Positions 1,939 to 44,961 of a stretch of DNA of 64,000 nucleotides are shown piece after piece. The notes below the pieces were generated by a model that saw only the letters and a program-made list of their open reading frames with translations, was not told the DNA's origin and did no database searches. The stretch's first letter is position 1. Each line of letters begins with the position of its first letter. The stretch comes from Escherichia phage T5_ev219: sequence record NC_134263.1; one strand, given 5' to 3'. The position numbers and the translations under genes are program-made.

Positions 1939-2040
1939 GCTTGTTTCCTCAGTTATTAATGAAAATGGTATCTGTGGCTGAATTCGATGTCAGCAATGAT
2001 AGCTGGTTGGCTACCGGTTTACTTAACTCTACACAGAATT

Positions 2041-2613: not shown

Positions 2614-2634
2614 TACTTCTTTCCTTTAGTAATT

Positions 2635-2710
2635 TGGACGACCGCATGAGATTTGAACTCACATAAAAAGGATTTGCAATCCTTCGCCTAAGCCATTCAG
2701 CCAACGGTCG
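2635..2710 (-). tRNA. tRNA-Cys (anticodon GCA)
   Basis: Acceptor CGACCGT/GCGGTCG, anticodon stem AAGGA/TCCTT with loop TTGCAAA, T-arm GTGAG-TTCAAAT-CTCAT, encoded CCA. Confidence 0.75.
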
Positions 2711-2897
2711 ATTTATCTTGTTTTTCGAGATCTTCAAATTCTAAATCATTGAAGTTCCCTAGAGTACGGGAGTAGAACCCGTCTCCTGCGTCATAGCCTG
2801 ATTTGCCACAATCACACATTTTAAATTCACGAAGATGTGTGAAAATATGCTCAGAACCACAACACTTAAATCTAACTAATCGTTTCATTAGTTTCAT
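2697..2897 (-). CDS. small Cys-rich protein (zinc-ribbon-like, 66 aa)
   Basis: CCGSEH...CDCGKSG cysteine pairs; promoter at 2926-2954 immediately upstream. Confidence 0.5.
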   Translation of the reverse strand: MKLMKRLVRFKCCGSEHIFTHLREFKMCDCGKSGYDAGDGFYSRTLGNFNDLEFEDLEKQDKSTVG

Positions 2898-2925
2898 TAG
2901 CTTCTCCAGTTCAATTTATATAATT

Positions 2926-2954
2926 ATTATATAGAACTTTTGGAAACTAAGCAA
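2926..2954 (-). promoter_or_regulatory. sigma70-type early promoter
   Basis: ATTATA 2926-2931, AAGCAA 2949-2954, 17-bp spacer. Confidence 0.55.
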
Positions 2955-3231
2955 CTACATTTTTTAAGAATTTGATGTCTTTCTTCTTCTTATATTTCCA
3001 CGTTAATGGATTCTGTCGATTGTGAACGCTTGAGATCTTCGTCTCGTCAAAGTTCTTCAATATCATGTAATCACAAGATAATTGTTCTAATGGAATGTGA
3101 TCACCGTCAAAAGCATATACATAAGGCTGTTGACTAGCACGATAATGATAGACTTTGTTAATTCTACGTTTCAGCGACTTATCAGCGCAGTAAATAAAGA
3201 AGTTTTCAGGATGCATCAGCATCTCCTTCAA
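2947..3231 (-). CDS. hypothetical protein (94 aa)
   Basis: ORF on transcribed strand between tRNA and promoter. Confidence 0.45.
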   Translation of the reverse strand: MKEMLMHPENFFIYCADKSLKRRINKVYHYRASQQPYVYAFDGDHIPLEQLSCDYMILKNFDETKISSVHNRQNPLTWKYKKKKDIKFLKNVVA

Positions 3232-3233
3232 TT

Positions 3234-3308
3234 TGGTGCACCCTGTTCGTATCGAACGAACCTCTCAAGCTCTTCAGGCAAGCGCTAATCCATCTCAGCT
3301 AAAGGTGC
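3234..3308 (-). tRNA. tRNA-Phe (anticodon GAA), tentative
   Basis: Acceptor GCACCTT/AGGGTGC, T-arm GTTCG-TTCGATA-CGAAC, anticodon loop CTGAAGA, encoded CCA; anticodon stem has two T-T mismatches. Confidence 0.5.
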
Positions 3309-3399
3309 AAATTTTGGCAAACCTACTAGGACTCGAACCTAGACCGTACGGTTTTGGAGACCGACATGCTGTCCAGTAACACTCTAGGAATGCAGAAAT

Positions 3400-3476
3400 T
3401 GGCGTCCTGTGCGGGGATCGAACCCGCAAATCCTACCTTGAAAGGGTAGTGACTTTACCAGTTTGTCTAACAGGAC
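3400..3476 (-). tRNA. tRNA-Glu (anticodon TTC)
   Basis: Acceptor GTCCTGT/ACAGGAC, anticodon stem CTACC/GGTAG with loop CTTTCAA, T-arm GCGGG-TTCGATC-CCCGC, encoded CCA. Confidence 0.8.
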
Positions 3477-3483
3477 TTAAATT

Positions 3484-3574
3484 TGGTGTTGGATGATGGA
3501 GTCGAACCACCCGAGACCCTTCCGAGTCGGCAGATTTACAGTCTGCTTCGCTACCTCTACGATACTAATCCAAC
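3484..3574 (-). tRNA. tRNA-Tyr (anticodon GTA), long variable arm
   Basis: Acceptor GTTGGAT/ATCCAAC, anticodon stem GCAGA/TCTGC with loop CTGTAAA, long variable arm, T-arm GTGG-TTCGACT-CCAT, encoded CCA. Confidence 0.8.
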
Positions 3575-3637
3575 ATATTTAAAAGTATTCAAATACTAGT
3601 TTAAACACTTTTAAATATGTTTCCGAATTAGATAACT

Positions 3638-3666
3638 ATTATACCAAGTTTTAAGGCACTGAGCAA
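3638..3666 (-). promoter_or_regulatory. sigma70-type early promoter driving tRNA-Tyr/Glu cluster
   Basis: ATTATA 3638-3643, GAGCAA 3661-3666, 17-bp spacer; followed at 3655-3695 by a 13-bp perfect inverted repeat. Confidence 0.5.
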
Positions 3667-3702
3667 GTCAAATTTTAAAGAACTTGCTCAGTGCTGTATT
3701 AG

Positions 3703-3978
3703 TTAGTCGAACTTAGGAGTGACAGTTAAGGAGAACGGAAGTTCGAAAACTTCTTCGCCCTCATTACTAACGGTAACTACACGACCTTTAAGTTCAGACA
3801 TTAAAATATCAATATCAGCTTTTGCATCTGGAGCCATGCCAGCTTCAATACATTTAGCTTTAACTTCCGGTAAAAGCTCTACGTTATAGAGATAGAGCCA
3901 CTCAATCTCACCTTCCCAGTCTTCCCAGGATTTGCAGATTGCACTTTCAATACCAGTTGCTACAACACGATTTTGCAT
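3703..3978 (-). CDS. hypothetical protein (91 aa)
   Basis: ORF with promoter at 4009-4038 upstream. Confidence 0.5.
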   Translation of the reverse strand: MQNRVVATGIESAICKSWEDWEGEIEWLYLYNVELLPEVKAKCIEAGMAPDAKADIDILMSELKGRVVTVSNEGEEVFELPFSLTVTPKFD

Positions 3979-4008
3979 TAATTAACTCCTTCATCAATTT
4001 ATATAACT

Positions 4009-4038
4009 ATTATACCAGAAATTTAAAGTAAAAGGCAA
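4009..4038 (-). promoter_or_regulatory. sigma70-type early promoter
   Basis: ATTATA 4009-4014, -35-like AAGGCA 4032-4037. Confidence 0.45.
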
Positions 4039-4068
4039 GTACATTTTTAAAAATTCTGTTTGGAGGAG

Positions 4069-4275
4069 CTAAACTCCAGATTTTTCGGCCAAGTCTAGAC
4101 TAATAAGAGTTATAGCCATAATTGCTGCACCGTGTTCTTTTTCTCCGGTGTTTTTAGCAGAGTCTATAATATCCTTAATCTGTTCGTAATAACTTTTTAC
4201 TTCTTGTTCAATGCCTGCCTCGGCTATCATGCCTTTAGCCATGAATCGTTGCATGGTAATTTCAGGATTAGCCAT
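4069..4275 (-). CDS. hypothetical protein (68 aa)
   Basis: ORF; start ATG overlaps stop of an upstream 55-aa ORF (ATGGCTAA), suggesting translational coupling. Confidence 0.5.
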   Translation of the reverse strand: MANPEITMQRFMAKGMIAEAGIEQEVKSYYEQIKDIIDSAKNTGEKEHGAAIMAITLISLDLAEKSGV

Positions 4276-4437
4276 GTTGTTTCTCCAGTTTCATTTTTAA
4301 TAGTTTACAGATGAAATCAACGTCTTCATCTGTGCCTAAGTCTCTATCCTCAAGGGTCGCCTTGAAGTTTTTCGTCAATTCCATGAGGATGATTTCCCTA
4401 GAACGACGTGTTGGCGGAGGTGGATGTCTATACATCT
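4273..4437 (-). CDS. hypothetical small protein (about 55 aa, below ORF-track cutoff)
   Basis: Hand-translated MYRHPPPPTRRSREIILMELTKNF...; stop overlaps next start. Confidence 0.3.
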
Positions 4438-4450
4438 TATTTCCTTAATT

Positions 4451-4527
4451 TGGTAGGGGTGGTGGGATTCGAACCCACAAAACCTGAATTTTAAGTCCAG
4501 TACCTATGCCAATTCGATTACACCCCC
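4451..4527 (-). tRNA. tRNA with anticodon TAA (Leu-type anticodon, short variable arm), tentative
   Basis: Acceptor GGGGGTG/CACCCCT, anticodon stem CTGGA/TTCAG with loop CTTAAAA, T-arm GTGGG-TTCGAAT-CCCAC, encoded CCA; D-arm poorly paired. Confidence 0.5.
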
Positions 4528-4628
4528 GTGTAATCAGTTTATTAGTTGATACATATTATAGCCTAAAGAAAACCCTACTACTAATCCTACTAACCAACCA
4601 ATATAATAATCTTTTAATTTCACGGGTG

Positions 4629-4814
4629 TCAACCTCGTTCAATATCTAGAGAAATACCACAGGTAGGATTAATGCCTGTGCCTTTGCACGTCGGACAAAC
4701 CCAGATATTACAGAATGTATCCCCTGCTTCTGCATCAGAACTTTCTCCAACTCCTAGACAGTCAGGACAGGCACATTCTTCTAGCTCTTGCTTGAGTTCT
4801 TGAAACTTAGACAT
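4629..4814 (-). CDS. small Cys-rich protein (61 aa, CxxC pairs, zinc-finger-like)
   Basis: CACPDC...CPTCKGTG...C motif pattern. Confidence 0.5.
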   Translation of the reverse strand: MSKFQELKQELEECACPDCLGVGESSDAEAGDTFCNIWVCPTCKGTGINPTCGISLDIERG

Positions 4815-4823
4815 ATAGTTTCC

Positions 4824-5012
4824 TTATTCAATTACTTTTGAGGCTTCAAGGGAGTCGATATAGTGTACGTTTTCTACCATAATCATATAATCTGCCACTT
4901 TATCCATAGCCTGAGCTTCAGAGGTAGCCCTGGCTAACCTATATCCTTTTTTATATTCATCCGGGTATTCCCTATCTGGAATAAACACAACATAAACTAG
5001 GTATAGTTCCAC
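4824..5012 (-). CDS. hypothetical protein (62 aa)
   Basis: ORF directly downstream of tRNA-Met on the transcribed strand. Confidence 0.4.
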   Translation of the reverse strand: MELYLVYVVFIPDREYPDEYKKGYRLARATSEAQAMDKVADYMIMVENVHYIDSLEASKVIE

Positions 5013-5033
5013 TTGTAACCCCTCTAATTAAAC

Positions 5034-5111
5034 TGGTGGCTCCCCGAGGATTCGAACCTACGTACCTTCCGGTTATGAGCCGGGTGCTCATACCATATGA
5101 GCTTGAGAACC
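5034..5111 (-). tRNA. tRNA-Met (anticodon CAT), tentative
   Basis: Acceptor GGTTCTC/GGGAGCC with G-U pairs, anticodon loop CTCATAA flanked by CCGG stems, T-loop TTCGAAT, encoded CCA; T-stem imperfect. Confidence 0.55.
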
Positions 5112-5117
5112 AGAATT

Positions 5118-5207
5118 TGGCGGAAGAAGTGGGAATCGAACCCACAAGGCTATATTTCAAACCGACAGATTAGCAATCTGCTGCAATACCGTTATGCTAT
5201 TCTTCCG
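5118..5207 (-). tRNA. tRNA-Ser (anticodon GCT), long variable arm
   Basis: Acceptor GGAAGAA/TTCTTCC, anticodon stem CAGA/TCTG with loop TTGCTAA, long variable arm, T-arm GTGGG-TTCGATT-CCCAC, encoded CCA. Confidence 0.8.
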
Positions 5208-5221
5208 AATTTATAAGATAT

Positions 5222-5250
5222 ATTATATTAGAAATTTAGCTTCATAGCAA
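5222..5250 (-). promoter_or_regulatory. sigma70-type early promoter driving tRNA-Ser/Met cluster
   Basis: ATTATA 5222-5227, TAGCAA 5245-5250, 17-bp spacer. Confidence 0.55.
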
Positions 5251-5310
5251 GAAAATTTTTCAAGTTTTCGGTAGACATCTCATCCACATCTACAGGAGAA
5301 ACAAATCCAT

Positions 5311-5745
5311 TTAATTGTCTAGCAAATTTTCACCAGCAGGATCATTATCCCCAACAGCTACCAATTTAAAAGGTAATAATTTCAGTTGCTTTAATAACGC
5401 TTTTCCTGGAGAAGAACCCAACATTGCTAGGGCTGGATAACCAGCGTTATGTAACGCAACTGCCTTAAATACAGATTCAGCGATCAATACTACTTTTTCA
5501 TCTCCATTGAGAGTTTCTAGTCCCCATACACACTGGGTAGTAGAATAAGTAAAATATTTAGCTTCAAAGGGACACTTACCATGACCTTTTGGAGCAGAAG
5601 GATTATAAGTTTGATAGCCCCTCAACATCCCAGAGAAGTCATACAACGGGACTGTTAGCCATCCTTCCGGACTTAACCAGCAATGATATTTTTCTGTATC
5701 AAATCCTCTAGATAAGAGGTGCTGTGTTAGCTCATCAACATTCAT
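5311..5745 (-). CDS. stand-alone TOPRIM-domain protein
   Basis: IAESVF (Toprim Glu) and VAVGDNDPAG (DxD) motifs; start moved to MNVDELT because ORF-track start lies upstream of the promoter at 5776-5804; RBS GAGAGAGGAA. Confidence 0.5.
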   Translation of the reverse strand: MNVDELTQHLLSRGFDTEKYHCWLSPEGWLTVPLYDFSGMLRGYQTYNPSAPKGHGKCPFEAKYFTYSTTQCVWGLETLNGDEKVVLIAESVFKAVALHNAGYPALAMLGSSPGKALLKQLKLLPFKLVAVGDNDPAGENLLDN

Positions 5746-5775
5746 ATCTGGTTCCTCTCTCAAATTTATAGATAT

Positions 5776-5804
5776 ATTATACAGAGAATTTAGCATTCAA
5801 GCAA
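5776..5804 (-). promoter_or_regulatory. sigma70-type early promoter
   Basis: ATTATA 5776-5781, AAGCAA 5799-5804, 17-bp spacer, conserved downstream ATAAATTTGAGAGAGG leader. Confidence 0.6.
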
Positions 5805-5920
5805 TCAAATTTTTTAACTTTTTAGAGGAAAATCATAGGGCACTTAAGGGCAGCAGATAAGTGGTGAGGACCAAAATTTGTGACCCCACTAAAAATCCGG
5901 GGGCAATTTTTAAAGACCCT

Positions 5921-5949
5921 TTGACATTTTCGCCGGGGTAGTGTAAAGT
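5921..5949 (+). promoter_or_regulatory. plus-strand sigma70 promoter (TTGACATTTTCGCCG class)
   Basis: TTGACA 5921-5926, 17-bp spacer, TAAAGT -10; the 15-mer TTGACATTTTCGCCG recurs at 34561. Confidence 0.5.
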
Positions 5950-6011
5950 ATATGTTATGGATGAGTGATCAAAGAGACACACATTTTCTATATACTAGGA
6001 GGTGTCAAAAA

Positions 6012-6992
6012 ATGACAGAAGAAGTAGCTAAGAGTCCTGAGACCGTCGCTAGCGTAGCAGCAGAACTGCATCGTCACGAGGAATCAGATAAGAAAAAGTG
6101 GGAGAAGGTCAGAGCCTACGAAGAAGAACATCGTGAACACGATGATAAAGATGAAGAAGATGACGATGATGTACGTTGTCATAAATATGGAAAATATAAA
6201 ATGCAAGAACCAGTAAACGTATTTACTAACGGCTTCCCTGGCATGGGTGCATTCCCAGCTAACGCAAGTGCTTTCGGTGGAGAAGGTATGGGTCTATTCG
6301 GAGCTATCCTAATCGGTGCTCTATTAACCGGCGGATTTGGTGGTTTTGGTGGTTTTGGTCGTGGTGCTGGCGTTGCCGCTGAAGGAACCGCTGTGGACGC
6401 GATCCTTTCTAACCAGGATACTGCAAGTATTCTAGCTGCAATCAATACTACTCGTACAGAAGCTAACCAGGGCACTGGGGCTGTTCTAAGTGCAGTAAAC
6501 GGTGTGGGAGCTGCTCAAGCTGCTAGCACTCAGCAAGTTCTGACTACTATCTACGGTACAGGTGCTAATCTGTCAAACCAGATCTGTGCTGAAACTCGTA
6601 ACGTTATTCAGGGTCAGTTCGATCTTTCTCGTCAGATGGATCAATCTTTCGCTGCTAACCAGATAGCACGTGCTCAAGATAAGTTTGACTCTGCTCAGAT
6701 TGCTTTCCAGCAGTCTATTCAGACCAACAACCAGTTTGCCGCTGTTCAGGCTCAGATGTGCGCTAACCAGAACGCTATCGAACGTCAGCTTGCTGAATGT
6801 TGCTGTGAGCTTCAGACTGCGATCGCTGGTGTAACTACTGCACGTATCCAGGACGAACTGAATGAATGCCGTCTGCGCGAAGCAATCGCTGCAGGTAGCG
6901 GTGCAAATGGTCAGGTAATCAACCAAATCGCTGTAAGTCTTGGTGCTATCACTCAGACTCTGGCTGGTCTGCAGGCTAAACTGCCGGCTTAA
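6012..6992 (+). CDS. hypothetical protein: acidic N-terminus, Gly-rich hydrophobic segment, Q/A/N-rich C-terminal half
   Basis: AGGAGG RBS before ATG 6012; DDKDEEDDDD tract, GMGLFGAILIGALLTGGFGGFGGFG segment; host-like optimised codons (CGT, CTG, GGT). Confidence 0.6.
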   Translation: MTEEVAKSPETVASVAAELHRHEESDKKKWEKVRAYEEEHREHDDKDEEDDDDVRCHKYGKYKMQEPVNVFTNGFPGMGAFPANASAFGGEGMGLFGAILIGALLTGGFGGFGGFGRGAGVAAEGTAVDAILSNQDTASILAAINTTRTEANQGTGAVLSAVNGVGAAQAASTQQVLTTIYGTGANLSNQICAETRNVIQGQFDLSRQMDQSFAANQIARAQDKFDSAQIAFQQSIQTNNQFAAVQAQMCANQNAIERQLAECCCELQTAIAGVTTARIQDELNECRLREAIAAGSGANGQVINQIAVSLGAITQTLAGLQAKLPA

Positions 6993-7013
6993 AATTAAGG
7001 GGAGGAGCCCATT

Positions 7014-7430
7014 ATGAGTAAATATGGTTTTGTGAACAACGGATTTAATCAACCAATGGGCTCCCAGCAGCCCGTTCCGGGTCTGGATAATCCTTACCTA
7101 CAACAGTTGCAACAGCGTTTAGCAGAAGCGCAACAGATGCAGCAACAACTCCAGCAAAACCCTGGAAGTGTGAGTCCTATGCAAATGATGCAGCAAATGA
7201 GCGGGCAGTCGCAAATGCCTCAACAAATGCATCAACAGGTGACTCAGCAGCAAGTTCAGCAGCAAACCCAACAACCGCAGGTTTCTGCGGAAGGACAGGC
7301 AGTACTAGCCCTTTTCGAAGACTTCGCAAAGACAGAGGATGGGAAGCAGCTTGTATCACTTATGGGTAAGTTTAATAGCTTCTGCCAAAGCCAAATTGCA
7401 AAAGCTCAAAATAGCGGTAATAACTCCTAA
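7014..7430 (+). CDS. hypothetical Q-rich protein (138 aa)
   Basis: RBS GGGGAGGAG; extended polyglutamine-rich low-complexity region. Confidence 0.55.
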   Translation: MSKYGFVNNGFNQPMGSQQPVPGLDNPYLQQLQQRLAEAQQMQQQLQQNPGSVSPMQMMQQMSGQSQMPQQMHQQVTQQQVQQQTQQPQVSAEGQAVLALFEDFAKTEDGKQLVSLMGKFNSFCQSQIAKAQNSGNNS

Positions 7431-7439
7431 GGAGGAATT

Positions 7440-7634
7440 ATGTGTTGCAGAAAATCTGTTTCGTGCTGCCCAATGCCTGTAGCACGTTGTTGCTCTCCAG
7501 CAATGTTTACGCAAATACCGGCGTTCAATCCGTTTGCCTTTAAGCCTACTCTTATCCTGCCCCCTAGAGTAGATTTTCAGTCAAGATTGGCCTCCCGTAT
7601 GGGTGGTTGCTGTAACAAGAGTATATGGTTCTAA
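7440..7634 (+). CDS. hypothetical Cys-doublet peptide (64 aa, four CC pairs)
   Basis: RBS AAGGAGGA; MCCRKSVSCC...RCC...GGCC pattern. Confidence 0.5.
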   Translation: MCCRKSVSCCPMPVARCCSPAMFTQIPAFNPFAFKPTLILPPRVDFQSRLASRMGGCCNKSIWF

Positions 7635-7649
7635 GGAACCAAACAATAA

Positions 7650-7686
7650 AGCCCCTAGTCGAAAGACTTAGGGGCTTTTCTTTTAT
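7650..7686 (+). terminator. rho-independent terminator ending the plus-strand module
   Basis: Hairpin AGCCCCTA-gtcgaaagac-TTAGGGGCT followed by TTTTCTTTT. Confidence 0.7.
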
Positions 7687-7690
7687 CTTA

Positions 7691-7731
7691 AATACAGAAA
7701 AGCCCTGCGCTCTCCAGGGAACGCAGGGCTT
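7691..7731 (-). terminator. rho-independent terminator for minus-strand SPFH gene
   Basis: Hairpin AAGCCCTGCG...CGCAGGGCTT followed on minus strand by TTTTCTGTATTT. Confidence 0.65.
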
Positions 7732-32348: not shown

Positions 32349-32759
32349 ATGACTACTCCAACTCAGTGGACTGATGAACTGTTCGAAAAAATGTCTTCCG
32401 AATACGTTGCTCGTATGGAGCAATTCCCAGAGGATGAACGTCCGGGTGTTAGCATGGAAATTGTTAGCGAAATTGCCCAGGAAAATGGTGTAACTCCGAA
32501 CGGTTTTCGTATGAAGCTGACTAAAGCAGGTGTGTATATCAAGAAAGCTGCTGGCTCTGCTTCTAAATCTAGCGCATCTACTGGAGAAAAAGCTTCCGGT
32601 GGTTCTCGTACCTCCAAAGCCCAGGCTCATGCTGACCTTCGTTCAGCGTTCTCTGATGCTGGCTTAGCACCAGATTTTCTGGATGATGCAATTATCGACA
32701 AACTGACCGGTAAAGCGGCTGCTCATCTGGCAGAAGCAATCCGAGCTATCACTAAGTAA
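32349..32759 (+). CDS. hypothetical protein (136 aa), highly optimised codons
   Basis: RBS AAGGAAA; host-like codon usage suggests high expression. Confidence 0.55.
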   Translation: MTTPTQWTDELFEKMSSEYVARMEQFPEDERPGVSMEIVSEIAQENGVTPNGFRMKLTKAGVYIKKAAGSASKSSASTGEKASGGSRTSKAQAHADLRSAFSDAGLAPDFLDDAIIDKLTGKAAAHLAEAIRAITK

Positions 32760-33102: not shown

Positions 33103-33126
33103 AGCCCCTATATGGGGCTTTTTGTG
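33103..33126 (+). terminator. rho-independent terminator
   Basis: Hairpin AGCCCC-tatat-GGGGCT followed by TTTTTGTG. Confidence 0.7.
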
Positions 33127-33142: not shown

Positions 33143-33451
33143 ATGAGCGAACAGGTAAATCAAAACTATGAAGGACACGTTGATGATCAGTCCATCATAC
33201 TTTGGGAGAAGGAGGGGGAACAAGTAAGATTAACAGTATCTGAATTTCGTGGGAATCTATACATGGGTATTCGTTACTGGCTTCTTGATATTAATGATGA
33301 ATGGTTTCCAACGAAATCTGGCTTCTCTTTTCCTTACACCCTAGAAACAACATCACAGCTTTTCTATGCGTTTACACAGATTCTTAGCGAATCTGAGGTT
33401 TTACATGAAGTACAGAAACGAGCTGAAGAACTCAAAGCCAAGAATGCCTAG
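33143..33451 (+). CDS. hypothetical protein (102 aa)
   Basis: ORF ending inside terminator hairpin 33438-33468. Confidence 0.5.
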   Translation: MSEQVNQNYEGHVDDQSIILWEKEGEQVRLTVSEFRGNLYMGIRYWLLDINDEWFPTKSGFSFPYTLETTSQLFYAFTQILSESEVLHEVQKRAEELKAKNA

Positions 33452-33468
33452 TTCTTGGCTTTTTCTTT
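33438..33468 (+). terminator. rho-independent terminator
   Basis: Hairpin GCCAAGAA-tgcctag-TTCTTGGC followed by TTTTTCTTT. Confidence 0.65.
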
Positions 33469-33538: not shown

Positions 33539-34510
33539 ATGACTAATGTAAAAGAATTTATTAAACGCTGTCAAGAAGCATATTATCAGGGTATGTCTTT
33601 AATCTCTGATGAGGAGTATGATTGCCTGGTAAAACGCTTCCCGTTAGAAGAAGAGATCGGGCCTAGGGGTGATATTCCACATCTGTATCGTATGTATTCT
33701 TTACAGAAAGTTTACTATAACCGTGGAGATAAATCACCATTCAATCCTTTAGGTCAGGTGGAAACCGATAAGTTAGATGGTTGTGCAATTTCTCTGCTAT
33801 ATATTAATGGCGAATTTGTTCAAGCATTAACCCGTGGTAATGGTATTCTGGGGAATGATGTCACAAGCAACGTAAGATTGCTGAACATTCCTAAAAAGAT
33901 TTCCCAAAAAGTACCTACTCAAATCACTGGTGAAGTTCTAATTACAAAAGAAGTAGAAAATAAACGTAACTTTGCCTCTGGTGCTATTAACCTCAAAGAT
34001 AGTGATGCTTTCGTACAACGTATTGGAGAAGGTGGTTTAATCTTCGTTGCATACGGTATCCAGTGTTCTGCTGAATCTGTAGGTATTACAGAAGCATATT
34101 TAAAAGATATGCTTTGGCTGGAGAATGAGAACTTCTTAACAGTTGTTAATGTGCGTTCCTTCTTTAAATGGATTCCGACGGACGGTAAAGTTGTTCGTAT
34201 TAATGACAACAACAAATTCTTCCGTGAAGGCTGGACTAATAAATTCCCTCGTGGAGCATTCGCCATTAAAGAGGATGAAGAAGGCGAGATTACAACTCTT
34301 ACTAAAGTTGAATGGCAGGTAGGGGCTTCTGGTAAAGTAACTCCAGTCGGTTATTTTGAACCAGTAATTATTGATGATGCTACAATTGTTAAAGCGACTC
34401 TTAATAACGTTGATTATATTAACTCTCTTGATCTAGAGATCGGTTGCCAGATTCGAGTGATTCGTGCTGGTGGTGTAATCCCGTGCATAGTAGAGCGAGT
34501 ATACGATTAA
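33539..34510 (+). CDS. ligA: NAD-dependent DNA ligase, adenylation/OB part (subunit A of split ligase)
   Basis: LigA N-terminal Ia-like region and adenylation motif KLDG (ETDKLDGCAISLLY); no Zn-finger/HhH/BRCT, which are in the next ORF. Confidence 0.8.
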   Translation: MTNVKEFIKRCQEAYYQGMSLISDEEYDCLVKRFPLEEEIGPRGDIPHLYRMYSLQKVYYNRGDKSPFNPLGQVETDKLDGCAISLLYINGEFVQALTRGNGILGNDVTSNVRLLNIPKKISQKVPTQITGEVLITKEVENKRNFASGAINLKDSDAFVQRIGEGGLIFVAYGIQCSAESVGITEAYLKDMLWLENENFLTVVNVRSFFKWIPTDGKVVRINDNNKFFREGWTNKFPRGAFAIKEDEEGEITTLTKVEWQVGASGKVTPVGYFEPVIIDDATIVKATLNNVDYINSLDLEIGCQIRVIRAGGVIPCIVERVYD

Positions 34511-34560
34511 TACATAACCCTTTGCTACCCATCTACCATATCGGAATTATAAAGTGGTTA

Positions 34561-34589
34561 TTGACATTTTCGCCGCTTAGGTATATACT
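34561..34589 (+). promoter_or_regulatory. sigma70 promoter (TTGACATTTTCGCCG class) inside ligase spacer
   Basis: TTGACA 34561-34566, 17-bp spacer, TATACT 34584-34589; shares 15-mer with promoter at 5921. Confidence 0.5.
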
Positions 34590-34653
34590 ATTATCATTCA
34601 GTTGAGGGATAGAAAGTTATGGCGAGGGTAAGCAAAGTTAGTTAAAATTGTAG

Positions 34654-34682
34654 TTGCTAAATGCTTAAATACTTGCTATAAT
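34654..34682 (+). promoter_or_regulatory. sigma70-type early promoter for ligase B
   Basis: TTGCTA 34654-34659, 17-bp spacer, TATAAT 34677-34682, conserved leader. Confidence 0.6.
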
Positions 34683-34712
34683 ATTTATATAAATTGATAA
34701 GGAAGAAATTTG

Positions 34713-35492
34713 ATGAAAATCGAAATTCCAACACAATGTCCCTCTTGTGGTTCTAAGCTAGATCTTGTCAACGGACAATTATTCTGTCGTAATAAGTCCA
34801 ACTGTCCAGCGCAATCAAGTAAGTTAATTGAGAACTTCTGTTCAAAAATGAAGTTAAAGGGTTTTGGCCCAAAAACTATTGAGAAGCTGGAGCTGACGAA
34901 GATTTCAGAACTATTTTACCTAACCGAAGAAGATTTGGTTAGAGCCGTGGGTAGCAAGGTTGCCGCTAAGTTAATTAGCGAATTAAATACTAAAGTTCGC
35001 GGAGACATTGACTTTGGTTCAGTTCTCGGTTCTTTAGGAATCCCTCTAATCGGAGAGGTTGCAGCAAAGAAATTATCCCAAAATTGCACTAGCTTCCACG
35101 ATGTGAAGGCTGACGGCAAGGCTGGAGAAAACTATAAAGCCTGGCTAAATTCCCCACAGGGCAAGGATGTTATCGAATTACCGTGGAAATTCACAACTGG
35201 TATTAAAGGTGCTAAAGCTGAGGTCATCATCACTGATGGTCTAGTAGCCCAACCAAACGGAATAACGGTATGTATTACCGGATCTTTGCAAGATTTTGCA
35301 AATAGAACGGATGCAACAAACTATTTAGAAGGTCTAGGATATACGGTTAAGAAATCCGTTACCAAAGACGTCAAATACCTAATCTGTGAGGATGAATCTA
35401 AGCGTTCTTCCTCATCTTATAAGAAAGCCGAAACGAATGGGATAGAAATCCTGTCGATTAAAGAACTATTGGAGAAAAATAATAATGTCTAA
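34713..35492 (+). CDS. ligB: NAD-dependent DNA ligase C-terminal part (Zn finger, HhH, BRCT; subunit B)
   Basis: CPSCGSKL...C..C Zn finger, helix-hairpin-helix GFGPKTIEKL / LGIPLIGEVAAKKL, BRCT-like ITVCITGSL. Confidence 0.75.
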   Translation: MKIEIPTQCPSCGSKLDLVNGQLFCRNKSNCPAQSSKLIENFCSKMKLKGFGPKTIEKLELTKISELFYLTEEDLVRAVGSKVAAKLISELNTKVRGDIDFGSVLGSLGIPLIGEVAAKKLSQNCTSFHDVKADGKAGENYKAWLNSPQGKDVIELPWKFTTGIKGAKAEVIITDGLVAQPNGITVCITGSLQDFANRTDATNYLEGLGYTVKKSVTKDVKYLICEDESKRSSSSYKKAETNGIEILSIKELLEKNNNV

Positions 35493-36252
35493 ACTGAACT
35501 GGAACGTAGAAGGTGTAACCGAGTCTCTGAAAGCAAAAGCCACTGCTCTGGGTGTTGCTGTAATCTCTCAAGAACAAGTAGCGGCTATCGCTGCTGAACT
35601 GGCTGCTGAAACTGGCAAAGACGTTACCGCTCGCTCTGTTGGCTCTAAGCTGCGCAAAGAAGGTTTCGAAGTACAGAAAGCTAACGAAGTACAGAAATCC
35701 CCGTGGACTCCTGAGCAGGAAGCTGAACTGGTTGATTTCCTGAACGCTCATGCTGGTCAGTATACTTATGCTGAAATCGCTGCTGCTGTAGCTGGTGGTC
35801 AGTTTGGTGCTAAGCAGGTACAGGGTAAGATCCTGAGTCTGGAAATGACAGCATCTGTTAAGCCGACCGAAAAAGCTGCTGCTGTTCGTTCCTTCACTCC
35901 TGATGAAGAAACTGATTTTGTTAATCAGGTTGTTGCTGGTGCTACTATTGAAGCTATCGCTGCTCACTTCGGTCGTAATATCAAGCAGATCCGTGGTAAA
36001 GCTCTGAGTCTGCTTCGCGAAGGTCGTATCGCTGCTATGCCGGTACAGGAAACTTCAAGTGCTAAAACTCGTGAAGATCTGTTAGAAGGTCTGGATCTGG
36101 CTAACATGACTGTTGCTGAGATCGCTGAGAAAACTGGTAAGTCTGAGCGCGGTGTTAAATCTATGCTGTCTCGTCGTGGTCTGGTTGCTAAGGACTATGA
36201 TGGTGCCGCTAAGCGTGCTAAATTGGATGCAAAAGCTGCGGCTGCTGAATAA
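35485..36252 (+). CDS. putative DNA-binding protein with four internal repeats of about 35 aa
   Basis: Repeats ...AIAAELAAETGKDVTARSVGSKLRKEG / TYAEIAAAVAGGQFGAKQVQGKILSL / TIEAIAAHFGRNIKQIRGKALSL / TVAEIAEKTGKSERGVKSMLSRRG; strongly optimised codons. Confidence 0.55.
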   Translation: MSKLNWNVEGVTESLKAKATALGVAVISQEQVAAIAAELAAETGKDVTARSVGSKLRKEGFEVQKANEVQKSPWTPEQEAELVDFLNAHAGQYTYAEIAAAVAGGQFGAKQVQGKILSLEMTASVKPTEKAAAVRSFTPDEETDFVNQVVAGATIEAIAAHFGRNIKQIRGKALSLLREGRIAAMPVQETSSAKTREDLLEGLDLANMTVAEIAEKTGKSERGVKSMLSRRGLVAKDYDGAAKRAKLDAKAAAAE

Positions 36253-36269: not shown

Positions 36270-36304
36270 AAGGGGAGGGGGCTATGCTCCTTCCCCTTTT
36301 TGCA
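36270..36304 (+). terminator. rho-independent terminator
   Basis: Hairpin AAGGGGAGG...CTCCTTCCCCTT followed by TTTTGCATTT. Confidence 0.65.
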
Positions 36305-36337
36305 TTTAGAAGGCACGAAAGCGTGCAAAGGAGAATG

Positions 36338-37807
36338 ACCTTGTTTAACGTGCAAGCTGTAGTGTTGAAGATGCTTCTAGCTTCAGAACAGAAGCAAATA
36401 GCATTGGAAACATTCTCAAAACTGCATAAAGATCATTTTAATGACGCTTTCTCCTCAATTTACCAAGCCGTCCAGAATTATTATAAAAAATATAACACAA
36501 TGCCGTCCATTGACGCACTGATGCTTGAGGCTAATAGGAACGCCCGCCTTTCTCAAGCTCTAGTCGTTTTAGCTAACACTCAAATTCCAGAAGTTAGCAT
36601 GGAACAGGCACTTGAAGTCCTAGAGGCCGAGTATACACAGGATTTATTCCTGAAGCTTCTAGAAACAGACGTGCTTCAAGATTTAACAATGCTGGATCAG
36701 GGAGAAATTCTTAACCGAGTTGCCTCCCTTCACTTAAAATTAGAAGAGAAAGTAACGAATACTGGAAAAGTATTCAACGCAGATAACATGCGTATTTTCC
36801 AGAGAGAAGAAGATACCAAACTGAACTTAATCGCTCTTGGTATTTGTAATGAGTTCGACGCTCAAATTGGTTTAGCTCGCACAGAAACGTTACTGCTTGG
36901 TGGTTGGCGTGGTACTGGTAAATCCATTATCTGTTCAAACATACAGGTTCAGCAATATTTGAATGGAGATATTGCTCCATACTTCTCAATTGAGATGAAA
37001 GAACATGAAGTATTTAGACGTAATCTAGCCATGTTAGCTGGTGTATCAGCACTAGCAATGCGTAATAATACTCTAGAAGGTGCAGCTCTGTTGAGATTAG
37101 CCAGAACTAGAGCTAGGATGTTTAACGGTGGTGAAGAGCTTTTCGATAACTTCGTTAAACAGTACACAATGGCTAAGATGAGTGATTTCTACGATATGGA
37201 AAGTAAGCTAATAGAAGGGTATGAACTACATACTCCTATGATTATTGTTTATGATCCTGAGCTGTCTATTACAACAGTTGACGTAGAATTAAATAAATTA
37301 GTTGCTAGATATGGTGATAAAGTTACAGTAGCTTTACTTGACTATATTAACCAAACCCGACTTCCAGATTCTAAAACCATTGATATGTATGACTGGAAAG
37401 AACAGATGGTTGTTAGCTCGTCTTTCAAATCTATCTGCCAGAAACATAACGTGGCTGGTGTAGCTCCTTACCAGATTGATCAAGATGGTAGAACACGTAT
37501 GTCAAAGGGGATTCTTGATTCCGCAGACATGGCTGCTAATCTTAATGCTGCAAAAGCTGATAATGGTCAAGGTGCTATTATGTTTGACTTCGTTAAGACT
37601 CGTTCTTCTGATAGTGTGAAGTTTATGCCTAAAATGAACTGGGAAACCCTACGGATGGATAACACTACCAACCTAGCAATGGAAGATATATCTCAAATGG
37701 AAGCTGAGTTCGTTATCCCTATTGAGAAGGATAAGCCGGCTCAATCTAAACGTGCTAAGAAAGACAAAGCTGAAAATTCAACAGGTGAACAGGCCAGCGA
37801 TATATGA
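36338..37807 (+). CDS. DnaB-like replicative helicase (RecA-fold ATPase)
   Basis: Walker A GGWRGTGKS, Walker B IIVYDPEL; start moved to MTLFNVQ (RBS AAAGGAGA) because the ORF-track start lies in the terminator. Confidence 0.65.
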   Translation, partial: TLFNVQAVVLKMLLASEQKQIALETFSKLHKDHFNDAFSSIYQAVQNYYKKYNTMPSIDALMLEANRNARLSQALVVLANTQIPEVSMEQALEVLEAEYTQDLFLKLLETDVLQDLTMLDQGEILNRVASLHLKLEEKVTNTGKVFNADNMRIFQREEDTKLNLIALGICNEFDAQIGLARTETLLLGGWRGTGKSIICSNIQVQQYLNGDIAPYFSIEMKEHEVFRRNLAMLAGVSALAMRNNTLEGAALLRLARTRARMFNGGEELFDNFVKQYTMAKMSDFYDMESKLIEGYELHTPMIIVYDPELSITTVDVELNKLVARYGDKVTVALLDYINQTRLPDSKTIDMYDWKEQMVVSSSFKSICQKHNVAGVAPYQIDQDGRTRMSKGILDSADMAANLNAAKADNGQGAIMFDFVKTRSSDSVKFMPKMNWETLRMDNTTNLAMEDISQMEAEFVIPIEKDKPAQSKRAKKDKAENSTGEQASDI

Positions 37808-38334
37808 TAACACAGGAACGACTAAAAGAACTGTTTGACTACTCCCCAGAGACTGGGGAGTTTACTAGAAAAGTATCTAGAGGCAATCAGAAAGCTGGTA
37901 GTATTGCGGGTACTCTAGATAGTGGATACATACGGATAAAGGTAGATAGAAAATTATACTTTGCACACCAACTAGCCTTCCTATATATGGAAGGATATAT
38001 GCCAGAGGAAGTAGACCATATTAATCGAATTACTTGGGATAATAGATGGATTAATATTAGGCCATCCACCCGGCAAGAAAATAGCAGAAATAAAACAGCT
38101 AGAAGTAAATCTGGATACTTGGGAGTTTTCTGGTTTAAGCGGGATCACAAATGGCATGTAAGAGTAGTAAATTCTATGGGAGAAAAAGTTCACGGTGGGC
38201 TCTTTAATTACGCAGATCTAAAGCTTGCAGTCACTAAAGCCAATGAACTACGTCTACAATTACATGGAGAAAATGCTGTTCAAGAGATCTTTGATCCAAC
38301 TAAGTATCCTTCACTGGAGGAGTTAAATTCATGA
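37804..38334 (+). CDS. HNH homing endonuclease, copy 2
   Basis: Paralog of 15203..15751 (LAFLYMEG...VDHINR...DNRWINIR...SGYLGVFW); overlaps helicase stop and primase start by 4 nt each. Confidence 0.75.
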   Translation: MITQERLKELFDYSPETGEFTRKVSRGNQKAGSIAGTLDSGYIRIKVDRKLYFAHQLAFLYMEGYMPEEVDHINRITWDNRWINIRPSTRQENSRNKTARSKSGYLGVFWFKRDHKWHVRVVNSMGEKVHGGLFNYADLKLAVTKANELRLQLHGENAVQEIFDPTKYPSLEELNS

Positions 38335-43910: not shown

Positions 43911-44195
43911 ATGCTTACAGAGCCTGATGCTCACCAATTATTGGTCGGTTCCTCATTCATTTTGAATGAATCAACAATAGTTGATAATCCAAATAAATTG
44001 TCTAATAGACAACTGGCAGAATATCTAGGAATTTTAAGTCTACGAAATTATGCCGAATACAAGTTTACAAACGATCCTAGTTTGGACATACAATATGTTC
44101 CAGTATGGATACCACGTTTAGTAATCGACACTAACCCACTAATCGCAATTAACAAATCGAAATTAATCTTTAAAGAGGAAATAAAATATGGCTAA
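43911..44195 (+). CDS. hypothetical protein (94 aa)
   Basis: ORF; weak RBS. Confidence 0.4.
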   Translation: MLTEPDAHQLLVGSSFILNESTIVDNPNKLSNRQLAEYLGILSLRNYAEYKFTNDPSLDIQYVPVWIPRLVIDTNPLIAINKSKLIFKEEIKYG

Positions 44196-44961
44196 GTCTT
44201 GGGGCGAAACTACTGGCGGTTCTAACGATAAAATCGAATTCCTGAAGTTCAACAACGGTATCACTCGTGTTCGTATCGTTTCTGGTGTTCTTCCACGTTA
44301 TGTCTATTGGCTGACTAATAAAGAGGGTAGCGTAGCTCCTTTCGAATGTCTCCGTTTTAACCGCGACAAAGAGAGCTTTGTTCGTGGTAAAGCTGACCCG
44401 GTTCATGAGATGGGCTTCTTTGAGAAAGAGCTGGATAAAGATGGCAATCGTGTTCCGCTGAAACCGAAGAAAAACTATATCGCTTTTGTTATCGACCGTT
44501 CTGATAACAAACTGAAAGTAATGGAAGTCAAAGCTACTATTCTGAAAGGCATCCAGTCTATCATGAAGCAGTTGAATCTGGCAACTCCGTTTGATATTGA
44601 TATTTCTATCGAGAAAAAAGGCAAAGGTTTCGATACTGAGTATGATGTACAGCAGATTGCTGCTATGCAGTTCCAGATTAAGCTGCAAGATCCTAACAGT
44701 GCGGAATCTAAGCAATATGCTGCGGATGTAGATCTGATTGGTGAAGCTATGTGTGACGAAGATGGCGACATCATTAAGTTCGAGAAAGTTCCTTCTCTGG
44801 AACAAACCTATCCAGTTCCTACCTATGAAGAGCAGAAAGAAGCAATTCAAGCCTTCATGGAAGGTCGTGAGAATAAAGATGATGATGCCAAATCTGGTAA
44901 CAGCAATGCTGGTTCCCAGAAAGGTATTGACTCAGAAGCTGCAAGCGATCTGGACGACTAA
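44188..44961 (+). CDS. putative single-stranded DNA-binding protein (acidic C-terminal tail)
   Basis: Position within replication module, highly optimised codons, C-terminal DSEAASDLDD tail typical of phage SSBs; no motif-level proof. Confidence 0.4.
   Translation: MAKSWGETTGGSNDKIEFLKFNNGITRVRIVSGVLPRYVYWLTNKEGSVAPFECLRFNRDKESFVRGKADPVHEMGFFEKELDKDGNRVPLKPKKNYIAFVIDRSDNKLKVMEVKATILKGIQSIMKQLNLATPFDIDISIEKKGKGFDTEYDVQQIAAMQFQIKLQDPNSAESKQYAADVDLIGEAMCDEDGDIIKFEKVPSLEQTYPVPTYEEQKEAIQAFMEGRENKDDDAKSGNSNAGSQKGIDSEAASDLDD

What the first reader, a model, noticed from the sequence alone, without database searches (positions are those of the whole stretch)
35485..36252. Highly expressed DNA-binding-like protein built from four internal repeats
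The protein consists of four approximately 35-aa repeats each resembling a short helix-turn-helix unit and uses strongly host-optimised codons. Such an abundant repeat protein could be a nucleoid-remodelling or transcription shut-off factor.
Basis: partly seen in the sequence, partly recalled or inferred. Interest (0 to 1): 0.5.

Follow-up and report, generated by a model that had tools for sequence, protein, structure and literature searches.

The report
Phage T5 D5 DNA-binding protein

Summary
ORF 35485-36252 (+) is gene D5 of a T5-like phage. It is 253/255 aa identical to T5 D5 (T5.118) and matches PHROG 323 'transcriptional regulator, D5-like' at E 2e-71. The T5 record annotates D5 as a DNA-binding protein required for DNA replication and late transcription and involved in shut-off.

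- There are four internal repeats, but the period is 55-60 aa, not about 35 aa. They show up even in the DNA: a 22-nt motif occurs four times, spaced 177/180/165 nt.
- AlphaFold2 (pLDDT 90, pTM 0.43) gives four separate three-helix helix-turn-helix bundles plus a conserved C-terminal helix.
- Codon adaptation is the highest of 64 ORFs in the window (CAI 0.69, median 0.27). Strong codon bias is kept in all 10 distant relatives checked.

Expression unit: tandem promoters P-K28b/a, then ligB, then D5 (ATG overlaps the ligB stop), then a strong terminator.

Verdict: real, correctly interpreted, already known. The GcrA-like four-module architecture is a modest addition.

The parts
34561..34589 (+). 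Sigma-70 promoter (TTGACA, 17 nt, TATACT). It corresponds to T5 early promoter P-K28b.
   Evidence: Consensus scan gives 11 of 12 matches. The T5 record annotates 'promoter P-K 28b' at the equivalent position upstream of ligB.
34654..34682 (+). Sigma-70 promoter (TTGCTA, 17 nt, TATAAT, with extended -10 TG). It corresponds to T5 early promoter P-K28a.
   Evidence: Consensus scan gives 10 of 12 matches plus TG. The T5 record annotates 'promoter P-K 28a'.
34713..35492 (+). ligB, NAD-dependent DNA ligase subunit B. It is the upstream gene of the same transcription unit, and its TAA stop overlaps the D5 start (ATGTCTAA).
   Evidence: Pfam BRCT E 1.6e-8 and HHH_2; T5 annotation. No promoter-like site was found between ligB and D5. 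CAI is only 0.243.
35471..35474 (+). GGAG Shine-Dalgarno-like motif, 10 nt upstream of the D5 ATG.
   Evidence: Read directly from the sequence. Its function is inferred.
35485..36252 (+). D5 coding sequence: 255 aa, 27.0 kDa, pI 6.8, no cysteine.
35494..35670 (+). Repeat unit 1 (aa 4-62): three-helix HTH, basic (pI 8.1). Helix 3 reads 'ARSVGSKLRK', with R50, S51, K55, L56 and R57 invariant in the family.
35698..35850 (+). Repeat unit 2 (aa 72-122): three-helix HTH, acidic (pI 4.8). Helix 3 reads 'AKQVQGKILSLE', with Q113, G114, K115 and L117 invariant.
35887..36030 (+). Repeat unit 3 (aa 135-182): three-helix HTH. Helix 3 reads 'IKQIRGKALSLLR', with G171 and K172 invariant. Of the four units it is the one most like the GcrA DNA-binding domain in sequence.
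   Evidence: U3 against GcrA: 80% probability.
36070..36192 (+). Repeat unit 4 (aa 196-236): HTH with a shortened first helix, basic (pI 9.1). Helix 3 reads 'ERGVKSMLSRRG', with G223, L228, R230 and R231 invariant. It carries the only Pfam match above threshold (Sigma70_r4_2).
36193..36249 (+). Conserved C-terminal tail and helix (aa 237-255, 'DYDGAAKRAKLDAKAAAAE'). D237 and G240 are invariant and K246 nearly so. I propose it as a protein-protein or cooperativity element.
   Evidence: Conservation; predicted helix 240-254. The role is inferred only.
36270..36298 (+). Intrinsic terminator ending the ligB-D5 unit: 13-bp stem with 8 G-C pairs, 3-nt loop, then TTTTGCATTT.

Best explanation
This is gene D5 of a T5-like phage (Tequintavirus).

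Expression. D5 is an early gene transcribed with ligB from the tandem strong promoters P-K28b and P-K28a, and the unit ends at a strong terminator. D5 is translated very efficiently. Its codons are those read by the host's major tRNAs, and it avoids the codons served by the phage's own tRNAs.

Protein. The 27-kDa product is a string of four three-helix helix-turn-helix domains of the GcrA / Myb / sigma-region-4 type. They are joined by short conserved linkers and followed by a conserved C-terminal helix.

Proposed mechanism. The third helix of the DNA-binding units sits in the major groove, as in the GcrA DNA-binding domain. With several such modules, one monomer would span roughly two turns of duplex, with little sequence specificity. 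Many copies would coat intracellular phage DNA. This coat would alter access of E. coli sigma-70 RNA polymerase and of the T5 replisome, which would explain why D5 is needed for DNA replication, for late transcription and for shut-off.

What is shown here: identity with D5, the four-repeat HTH architecture, the codon bias and the layout of the transcription unit.
What comes from annotation and literature: dsDNA binding and the replication, late-transcription and shut-off phenotypes.
What is inferred: the major-groove mode of each unit, the span per monomer, coating of DNA, and how that produces the regulatory switch.
For: Identity with D5:
- 97.9% nucleotide identity to T5, with the D5 CDS under the match. 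508 phage records cover at least 80% of the query.
- 253/255 aa identical to T5 D5.
- PHROG 323 'transcriptional regulator, D5-like', E 1.9e-71.
- The T5 record's note on function.

Architecture:
- AlphaFold2 pLDDT is 90.3 but pTM is 0.43, meaning four confident domains with undefined mutual orientation.
- The pooled unit profile aligns to the GcrA domain at 94.8% probability, against 16% or less for Myb R1/R2, engrailed, sigma-70 region 4, Hin, resolvase and Cro. The GcrA sequence was verified against PDB.
- GcrA uses helices 2-3 in the major groove, with K39, H41 and R42 contacting DNA (PMC5887438). The aligned positions in D5 are K55/R57/K58 in unit 1, G171-K172 in unit 3 and R230 in unit 4, and most of these are invariant in the family.

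Abundance:
- CAI 0.691, top of 64 ORFs.
- In all 10 distant loci examined, the D5 homologue has the lowest Nc of its neighbourhood (29.5-41.5, against 37.8-57.9).
- The tandem promoters and the terminator.
- The D5 homologue is among the major proteins in a phiR2-01 virion preparation (PMC8624392).

Replication context: the gene order ligA-ligB-D5-DnaB-like helicase-primase is conserved at 47-48% identity.

DNA engagement: in a 2026 preprint one retron-escape phage (T5.1) carried four D5 changes. Two of them, G53D and G232D, fall in or at the end of helix 3 of units 1 and 4. Purified D5 remodelled the msDNA-containing retron complex.

From my own memory, not checked here: Rice et al. 1979 (J Biol Chem) and Fujimura & Roop 1983 (J Virol) reported cooperative binding of purified D5 to duplex DNA and effects on T5 DNA polymerase.
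Against: - No DNA-binding experiment could be done or read at first hand. The 1979 paper is not in the library.
- The whole protein is nearly neutral (pI 6.8) and unit 2 is acidic (pI 4.8), so not all four units need bind DNA.
- The residues that give GcrA its base specificity (R33, N34, I37) are not conserved in the D5 units, so the binding mode is only an analogy.
- Unit 1 is linked to the other units only weakly by sequence.
- The preprint saw a 26-kDa species for free D5. This neither supports nor excludes cooperativity on DNA.
- How a DNA coat would discriminate early from late sigma-70 promoters is unexplained. PMC7472727 states that the mechanism of the T5 class switch is still unknown (abstract).
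Confidence: 0.8

Rival explanations
1. D5 is a sequence-specific transcription factor. It would work like GcrA or an appropriated sigma region 4, binding defined sites at T5 late (or early) promoters and contacting sigma-70 RNA polymerase to switch promoter classes, rather than coating DNA in general.
For: - The units are most like the GcrA DNA-binding domain and sigma-70 region 4.
- D5 is required for late transcription and is labelled 'putative transcription factor' or 'transcriptional regulator' in database records.
- Four HTH modules could read a long composite site.
- Some distant relatives fuse a LuxR / sigma-region-4-type HTH to 4-5 D5-like units (P0241, P0247).
Against: - Extreme codon bias, conserved across the family, is typical of stoichiometric, abundant proteins rather than site-specific regulators.
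- D5 has no counterpart of GcrA's sigma-interacting CCCH zinc-finger domain, and it contains no cysteine at all (PMC5887438).
- GcrA's base-reading residues are not conserved.
- The requirement for DNA replication and the replisome gene context are not explained by a promoter-specific factor.
- The classical biochemistry, as I recall it, reported non-specific duplex binding.
Confidence: 0.13
2. D5 is the phage's single-stranded DNA-binding protein (SSB) for replication, as one GenBank record labels it.
For: - Klebsiella phage vB_Kpn_3 annotates the homologue as 'single stranded DNA-binding protein'.
- The gene sits in the replication module and is highly expressed, as SSBs are.
Against: - The predicted fold is all-alpha HTH with no OB fold, and no SSB family matched in Pfam or NCBIfam.
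- The same window encodes a separate PC4-like ssDNA-binding candidate at 33143-33451 (Pfam PC4, E 8e-8).
- The T5 record does not call D5 an SSB.
Confidence: 0.03
3. The 'repeats' are a by-product of an Ala-rich, helix-rich composition, and the protein is a single non-repetitive helical domain.
For: - One of 200 composition-preserving shuffles reached the observed self-alignment score.
- The profile of pooled units also hits designed coiled coils carrying 'EIAQQLEEIAK' motifs in PDB, which shows some low-complexity character.
- Unit 1 scores only 10-19% probability against the other units.
Against: - A four-fold periodic DNA motif at 177/180/165 nt.
- U2-U3 at 95.8% probability.
- Four discrete three-helix bundles at pLDDT above 90.
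- Natural family members with a fifth unit inserted exactly as a module (P0121, with unit 2 duplicated; P0192; P0250).
Confidence: 0.02

Closest known systems
Bacteriophage T5 D5 protein (gene D5, T5.118, AAS77164.1); PHROG 323 'transcriptional regulator, D5-like'
   Same: 253/255 identical residues, same length, same flanking genes (ligB upstream, D6 helicase downstream), same promoters and terminator. PHROG 323 E 1.9e-71.
   Different: Two substitutions only: A25 against D25, and A206 against V206. The window comes from a close relative of T5 rather than T5 itself; the best nucleotide hits, at 98.4-98.6%, are other T5-like phages.
DNA-binding domain of Caulobacter crescentus GcrA (PDB 5yiu; Pfam PF07750)
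   Different: - D5 has four such modules in tandem; GcrA has one.
- D5 lacks GcrA's linker and its sigma-70-binding CCCH zinc-finger domain.
- GcrA's base-contacting residues are not conserved.
- HMMER does not detect Pfam GcrA in D5.
- GcrA is a monomeric promoter-associated activator that prefers methylated GANTC sites. Nothing suggests this for D5.
Myb/SANT repeat arrays (for example c-Myb R1R2R3) and other tandem tri-helical HTH arrays (Tc3/Pax bipartite domains, Timeless DNA-binding domain)
   Different: - No triad of regularly spaced tryptophans.
- The Pfam Myb score (17.6) is below the gathering score (24.4).
- HHalign to c-Myb R1/R2 gives only 7-9%.
- Bacteriophage rather than eukaryotic context.
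Sigma-70 region 4 (Pfam Sigma70_r4_2, PF08281)
   Same: Unit 4 (aa 204-230) exceeds the Pfam gathering score (29.1 against 25.7). 15 of 52 isolated units match this model. The GcrA paper itself reports that the GcrA DNA-binding domain resembles sigma region 4.
   Different: Only the HTH (model positions 23-49 of 54) is matched. There are no sigma regions 1-3 and no core-binding determinants, so D5 is not a sigma factor.
Phage phi29 protein p6 (functional analogue; from my own knowledge, not tested here)
   Same: An abundant early phage protein that binds dsDNA along the viral genome, and that is needed both for replication and for the early-to-late transcription switch.
   Different: Unrelated sequence and fold, and a different phage group. 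The comparison concerns how D5 may work, not membership.

Membership tests
T5 D5 protein family (PHROG 323) | Full-length sequence similarity to T5 D5 | tested here: met
   253/255 identity; PHROG 323 E 1.9e-71 over residues 1-253; 726 homologues found, of which the 120 listed are nearly all about 240-260 aa.
T5 D5 protein family (PHROG 323) | Position in the early replication module, between ligase subunit B and the DnaB-like helicase | tested here: met
   Window gene order equals that of T5. The same order holds in L035 and L062 at 47-48% identity.
T5 D5 protein family (PHROG 323) | Binds double-stranded DNA | not testable with these tools
   Only the annotation and literature are available. 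The fold is consistent with it.
T5 D5 protein family (PHROG 323) | Required for phage DNA replication and late transcription | not testable with these tools
   Genetic phenotype taken from the T5 record note and the title of McCorquodale 1979.
GcrA (Pfam PF07750) | N-terminal three-helix DNA-binding domain of the GcrA type | tested here: met
GcrA (Pfam PF07750) | Match to the Pfam GcrA model above its gathering score | tested here: not met
   No GcrA hit for D5 at E <= 0.1, and GcrA is not among the 25 Pfam families listed for the 52 isolated units scanned at E <= 1. Only a distant array protein, P0259, scores, and at 25.2 it is below the threshold of 26.9.
GcrA (Pfam PF07750) | C-terminal sigma-70-interacting domain with a CCCH zinc finger | tested here: not met
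   D5 contains no cysteine. Its C-terminus is a single short helix. The domain definition is from PMC5887438.
GcrA (Pfam PF07750) | Base-reading residues R33, N34, I37, H41, R42 for methylated GANTC | tested here: not met
   In the HHalign register, R33, N34 and I37 align with A49/R50/G53 (unit 1), I166/K167/R170 (unit 3) and E221/R222/K225 (unit 4). Only the K39/R42-type backbone and edge contacts recur.
Myb/SANT | Pfam Myb_DNA-binding above its gathering score; three spaced Trp per repeat | tested here: not met
   17.6 bits against 24.4. There is one aromatic residue at the start of each unit and no Trp triad. HHalign gives 7-9%.
Sigma-70 family sigma factor | Region 4 HTH | tested here: met
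   Sigma70_r4_2: 29.1 bits against a cut-off of 25.7, at aa 204-230.
Sigma-70 family sigma factor | Region 2 (core binding, -10 recognition) | tested here: not met
   No Sigma70_r2 match. The rest of the protein consists of three more HTH bundles.
Single-stranded DNA-binding proteins (OB-fold SSB) | OB fold or SSB profile match | tested here: not met
   All-alpha model. No SSB family in Pfam or NCBIfam.

The most novel reading that the evidence does not exclude
D5 may be a modular 'phage chromatin' protein whose four GcrA-type HTH modules have divided the work.

- The basic units 1 and 4 clamp duplex DNA. Two of the four D5 changes carried by the retron-escape phage T5.1, G53D and G232D, fall there.
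- The acidic unit 2 (pI 4.8), together with the invariant C-terminal helix, would act like a SANT domain. It would contact neighbouring D5 molecules, sigma-70 RNA polymerase or the T5 polymerase.
- A D5 coat laid down on phage DNA would then physically couple replication to the early-to-late transcription switch.
- D5 and GcrA would share a common ancestor module that phages multiply (4, 5 or more copies) to tune DNA coverage.
Probability: 0.2. Interest if true: 0.5.

Novelty: already known. Interest (0 to 1): 0.2.

Why it matters
The gene itself is a classic: T5 amber-mutant class D5, with the protein described in the 1970s. Finding it in a T5-like genome is therefore ordinary.

Three points give it some value.
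- How T5 switches between early and late genes is still described as unknown, although both classes use sigma-70 promoters (PMC7472727), and D5 is one of the few genes required for the switch.
- No experimental structure of the family exists.
- The architecture documented here gives concrete constructs and point mutants for testing how D5 binds DNA: four GcrA-like HTH modules of different charge, conserved linkers, a conserved C-terminal helix, and natural 5-unit variants.

It also bears on the 2026 report that D5 is the trigger sensed by retron-Kva2.

Tried and rejected
- Foldseek against BFVD: apart from two closer matches (the Vibrio phage X1 D5, and an unnamed 186-aa protein at 47% identity), it returned only loose multi-HTH phage proteins.
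- NCBIfam: no hit for D5, D3 or D11.
- Sequence search of PDB with the family profile: only E >= 0.014 hits to designed engrailed variants. With the pooled-unit profile, the top hits are designed coiled coils, which I treat as composition artefacts. GcrA reaches only E 1.5 by HMMER.
- McCorquodale 1979 (PMC353123) is not held in the library. So the classical biochemistry is cited from annotation, from reference lists, or from my own memory, and is flagged as such.
- Several literature calls failed on the 3-character term rule, and one search was swamped by 'tumor protein D52'.
- The DRT4 paper's 'phage-encoded DNA binding protein' turned out to be T5 ORF55, not D5.
- The antisense ORF 35458-35967 (169 aa) was considered and dismissed. 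It has no homology support and is what a strongly biased GCT/CTG-rich gene is expected to produce.
- The SSB label in one GenBank record is rejected on fold grounds.
- Membership in the GcrA, Myb and sigma-factor families is rejected (see the membership tests).
Full report
**What is at the coordinates**

Window 35485-36252 (+) is a clean ATG-to-TAA ORF of 255 aa.
- A megablast of the ORF against 50,697 phage records finds 510 matching records. In 508 of them one place covers at least 80% of the query. All of the 25 records listed are T5-like phages of Escherichia, Salmonella and Klebsiella, apart from one unannotated 13.6-kb record deposited as a Listeria phage.
- In phage T5 itself (AY543070) the match is 97.9% identical and coincides exactly with the CDS of gene D5 (T5.118, AAS77164.1).
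- The T5 record's note reads 'DNA-binding protein; required for DNA replication and late transcription; also is involved in shutoff of expression of ...' (the output cuts it off there).
- At the protein level the window's product is 253/255 identical to T5 D5.
- PHROGs assigns it to phrog_323, 'transcriptional regulator, D5-like', at E 1.9e-71 over the full length.

The window is therefore a stretch of a Tequintavirus genome, and the finding is the classical gene D5.

**Is the four-fold repeat real?**

Yes, on several independent grounds.

1. It is visible in the DNA. A 22-nt motif encoding the 'T-x-x-E-I-A' helix occurs four times, at 35586, 35763, 35943 and 36108. The spacings are 177, 180 and 165 nt, that is 59, 60 and 55 codons. 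A 30-nt motif ('KQVQGKILSL' / 'KQIRGKALSL') recurs at 171 nt.
2. The best off-diagonal self-alignment scores 75, against 38.9 +/- 6.9 for 200 shuffles. One shuffle reached 75, which reflects the Ala-rich composition.
3. I aligned 30 homologues at 50-81% identity (A1), cut the alignment into four segments and compared the segment profiles:
   - units 2 and 3 are clearly related (95.8% probability, E 7e-9);
   - units 3 and 4 moderately so (60.8%);
   - unit 1 is only weakly similar to the others (10-19%), but always aligns in the same register.
4. AlphaFold2 on A1 gives mean pLDDT 90.3 but pTM 0.43. This is the signature of confidently folded domains with no fixed mutual arrangement. DSSP shows four three-helix bundles and a C-terminal helix at 240-254:
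   - unit 1: 11-22 / 29-43 / 49-58
   - unit 2: 76-88 / 95-101 / 109-118
   - unit 3: 139-150 / 155-162 / 166-178
   - unit 4: a short turn at 205-207, then 210-217 / 221-231
5. Natural variants treat the unit as a module. P0121 (309 aa) has unit 2 duplicated, and P0192 and P0250 (about 290 aa) have five units.

The period is 55-60 aa and the folded core is 45-55 aa.

**Is each unit an HTH?**

Yes.
- Pfam places HTH-type matches in each unit: HTH_33 at 32-68, Myb at 71-100, HTH_23 at 151-184 and Sigma70_r4_2 at 204-230. Only the last passes its gathering score, at 29.1 against 25.7 bits.
- I pooled 52 unit sequences into one alignment (A2) and compared it with the GcrA domain, whose sequence I first verified against PDB. 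HHalign gives 94.8% probability (E 4.9e-8, 45 columns).
- The same profile gives 16% or less against c-Myb R1 and R2, engrailed, sigma-70 region 4, Hin, gamma-delta resolvase and Cro. The E-values are for single pairs.

So the units belong to the tri-helical HTH class and are closest to the GcrA DNA-binding domain. This is not family membership:
- HMMER does not detect Pfam GcrA in D5 or in its units.
- D5 has no cysteine, and therefore no CCCH sigma-interaction domain.
- GcrA's base-reading residues R33, N34 and I37 are not conserved.

What is conserved are the positions that in GcrA touch the DNA backbone or the groove edge, namely K39, H41, R42 and G44 (PMC5887438). They align with:
- K55/R57/K58/G60 in unit 1
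- G114-K115 in unit 2
- G171-K172 in unit 3
- R230/G232 in unit 4

Most of these are invariant or nearly so across the family.

**Codon usage and expression**

- With E. coli CAI weights, D5 scores 0.691. This is the highest of 64 ORFs in the window (median 0.266, z = 4.1).
- The pattern is that of E. coli ribosomal-protein genes: CTG 16 of 19 Leu, GCT 39 of 46 Ala, GGT 17 of 19 Gly, CGT/CGC only for Arg, ATC 9 of 10 Ile. In contrast, ligA, ligB, D6 and the primase use TTA, CTA, AGA, ATA and CCA freely.
- The window also carries 14 phage tRNA genes, including Leu-UAA, Arg-UCU and Pro-UGG. D5 almost completely avoids the codons they read. It appears tuned to the host's major tRNAs.
- The bias does not depend on my weight table. 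Wright's Nc is 31.4 for D5, against 41-53 for neighbouring genes. In all ten diverged loci examined (47-77% identity, including marine metagenomic contigs) the D5 homologue has the lowest Nc of its neighbourhood. Strong bias is therefore a conserved property of the family.

**Transcription unit**

- Two sigma-70 promoters lie upstream of ligB: 34561-34589 (11 of 12 consensus matches) and 34654-34682 (10 of 12, with an extended -10). They coincide with the T5 features 'promoter P-K 28b' and 'P-K 28a'.
- No promoter-like site lies between ligB and D5.
- The D5 ATG overlaps the ligB stop (ATGTCTAA), and a GGAG lies 10 nt upstream.
- A 13-bp, 8-GC hairpin followed by a T-run at 36270-36298 ends the unit.
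- One proteomics study found the D5 homologue among the major proteins of a phiR2-01 virion preparation, although it is not a virion component in T5. This fits an abundant DNA-bound protein (PMC8624392).

**Family and context**

- The word-indexed search found 726 homologues. The 120 listed are almost all 240-260 aa.
- The exhaustive search of 1.84 billion cluster representatives found 537 at E <= 1e-3, and 76 at E <= 1e-30.
- In IMG/VR, 581 loci encode a relative.
- The order ligA - ligB - D5 - DnaB-like helicase - primase is retained in relatives at 47-48% identity.
- No member has a solved structure.
- More distant profile hits are long arrays of 7-10 similar HTH units. Others fuse a LuxR / sigma-region-4 HTH to 4-5 such units.

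**What the literature adds**

- The T5 record and later genome papers cite McCorquodale et al. [quoted passage not shown] The paper itself is not held.
- From memory only: Rice et al. 1979 (J Biol Chem) purified D5 as a cooperative duplex-DNA-binding protein, and Fujimura & Roop 1983 studied its effect on T5 DNA polymerase.
- A July 2026 preprint (10.64898/2026.07.11.737809) identifies D5 as the trigger of the type IX retron Kva2. It reports that:
  - D5 is toxic on its own;
  - free D5 is seen at 26 kDa by mass photometry;
  - AlphaFold3 predicts that its HTH binds the msDNA stem-loop;
  - purified D5 remodels the retron complex;
  - the escape phage T5.1 carries G53D, W74*, V149I and G232D in D5.
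- In my alignment, G53 lies in helix 3 of unit 1 (aligned with GcrA I37). G232 lies at the end of helix 3 of unit 4 (aligned with GcrA G44). These are the two basic units (pI 8.1 and 9.1).
- PMC7472727 states that the mechanism of the early-to-late switch in T5 remains unknown (abstract).

**Most likely mechanism**

Shown here: the gene is D5; it is a chain of four tri-helical HTH modules plus a conserved C-terminal helix; it has the codon usage and promoter/terminator setting of a very highly expressed early gene; and it sits in the replication module.

Taken from annotation and literature: it binds DNA and is needed for replication, late transcription and shut-off.

Inferred:
- Helix 3 of (at least) units 1, 3 and 4 occupies the major groove, as in GcrA.
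- One monomer spans about two helical turns with low specificity.
- Many copies coat phage DNA.
- The conserved linkers (VQKA, VKPTEK, P-x-Q) and the C-terminal helix mediate spacing, cooperativity or partner contacts.
- The acidic unit 2 (pI 4.8) may be a protein-contact module rather than a DNA-binding one.

How such a coat distinguishes early from late promoters is not explained by anything I found.

**Rivals**

- A sequence-specific, GcrA-like activator is the main alternative (about 0.13). The conserved extreme codon bias, the lack of a sigma-interaction domain and the replication phenotype weigh against it.
- The 'SSB' label in one record is contradicted by the all-alpha fold and by the separate PC4-like gene at 33143-33451.
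- A compositional artefact is excluded by the periodic DNA motif, by the structure and by the natural 5-unit variants.

**Verdict**

The object is already known. The explicit four-module, GcrA-like architecture, the charge asymmetry of the modules and the family-wide codon bias are modest additions that make old questions about D5 easier to test. Interest is low to moderate (0.2).

Noticed in passing
window 36270-36343: The mechanical (and T5-annotated) start of the D6 DnaB-like helicase, ATG 36284, lies inside the D5 terminator hairpin (36270-36298). Across seven homologues, N-terminal conservation begins only at 'M-(F/I)-N-V-Q-A-V-V-L-K'. The real start is therefore probably TTG 36341 (GGAG at 36330-36333, 7-nt spacer) or ATG 36335, which would shorten the protein by 17-19 residues.
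   Followed up: partly
window 32349-32759 and 44188-44961: After D5, the most codon-biased ORFs in the window are D3 (CAI 0.584, Nc 36.6) and D11 (CAI 0.553, Nc 34.8). D11 has the same cassette layout as D5: tandem promoters (P31A/P31B), a small upstream ORF overlapping its ATG by 8 nt, and a terminator just downstream. Neither has a Pfam or NCBIfam assignment that I obtained. The 2026 retron preprint calls D3 a DNA-binding gene.
   Followed up: partly
window 239-9386 (- strand): A cluster of 14 phage tRNA genes, including Leu-UAA, Arg-UCU and Pro-UGG. The codons they read (TTA, AGA, CCA) are common in ligA, ligB, D6 and the primase but almost absent from D5. This suggests two translational regimes within one early region.
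   Followed up: partly
window 33143-33451: A 102-aa ORF with a PC4 (transcriptional coactivator p15) domain, Pfam E 8e-8, PHROG 4053. It is a candidate ssDNA-binding protein of the phage, flanked by terminator-like hairpins at 33103-33119 and 33434-33462.
   Followed up: no
window 33539-35492: The NAD-dependent DNA ligase is split into two genes. ligA carries the adenylation and OB domains; ligB carries the Zn-finger, HhH and BRCT domains. They are separated by about 200 nt that carries the two strong promoters P-K28b/a. The split and the spacing are kept in relatives at 47-48% identity.
   Followed up: partly
window 37804-38334: A 176-aa ORF, corresponding to the HNH homing-endonuclease gene annotated in T5 (hegJ), sits between the helicase and primase genes and overlaps both by 4 nt. 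It has the lowest CAI of the neighbourhood (0.158). It is absent from that position in the distant relatives L035 and L062, where the primase directly follows the helicase.
   Followed up: no
proteins P0121, P0192, P0250, P0241, P0247, P0246, P0255, P0259 (hits): Repeat number varies among relatives. There are 5-unit D5 variants (unit 2 duplicated in P0121). Some proteins fuse a LuxR / sigma-region-4 HTH to 4-5 D5-like units. Others are arrays of 7-10 similar HTH units. I did not determine where these are encoded.
   Followed up: partly
D5 residue W74 (window 35704-35706): The retron-Kva2 preprint reports a viable T5 escape phage carrying a premature stop, W74*, in D5 together with three missense changes. 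Yet the T5 record annotates D5 as required for DNA replication and late transcription. Possible explanations are a suppressor, a mixed phage population, or a functional unit-1-only fragment. This is unexplained.
   Followed up: no
window 35458-35967 (- strand): A 169-aa antisense ORF lies wholly inside D5. It has no independent support and is most simply a by-product of the strongly biased GCT/CTG-rich sense strand.
   Followed up: no
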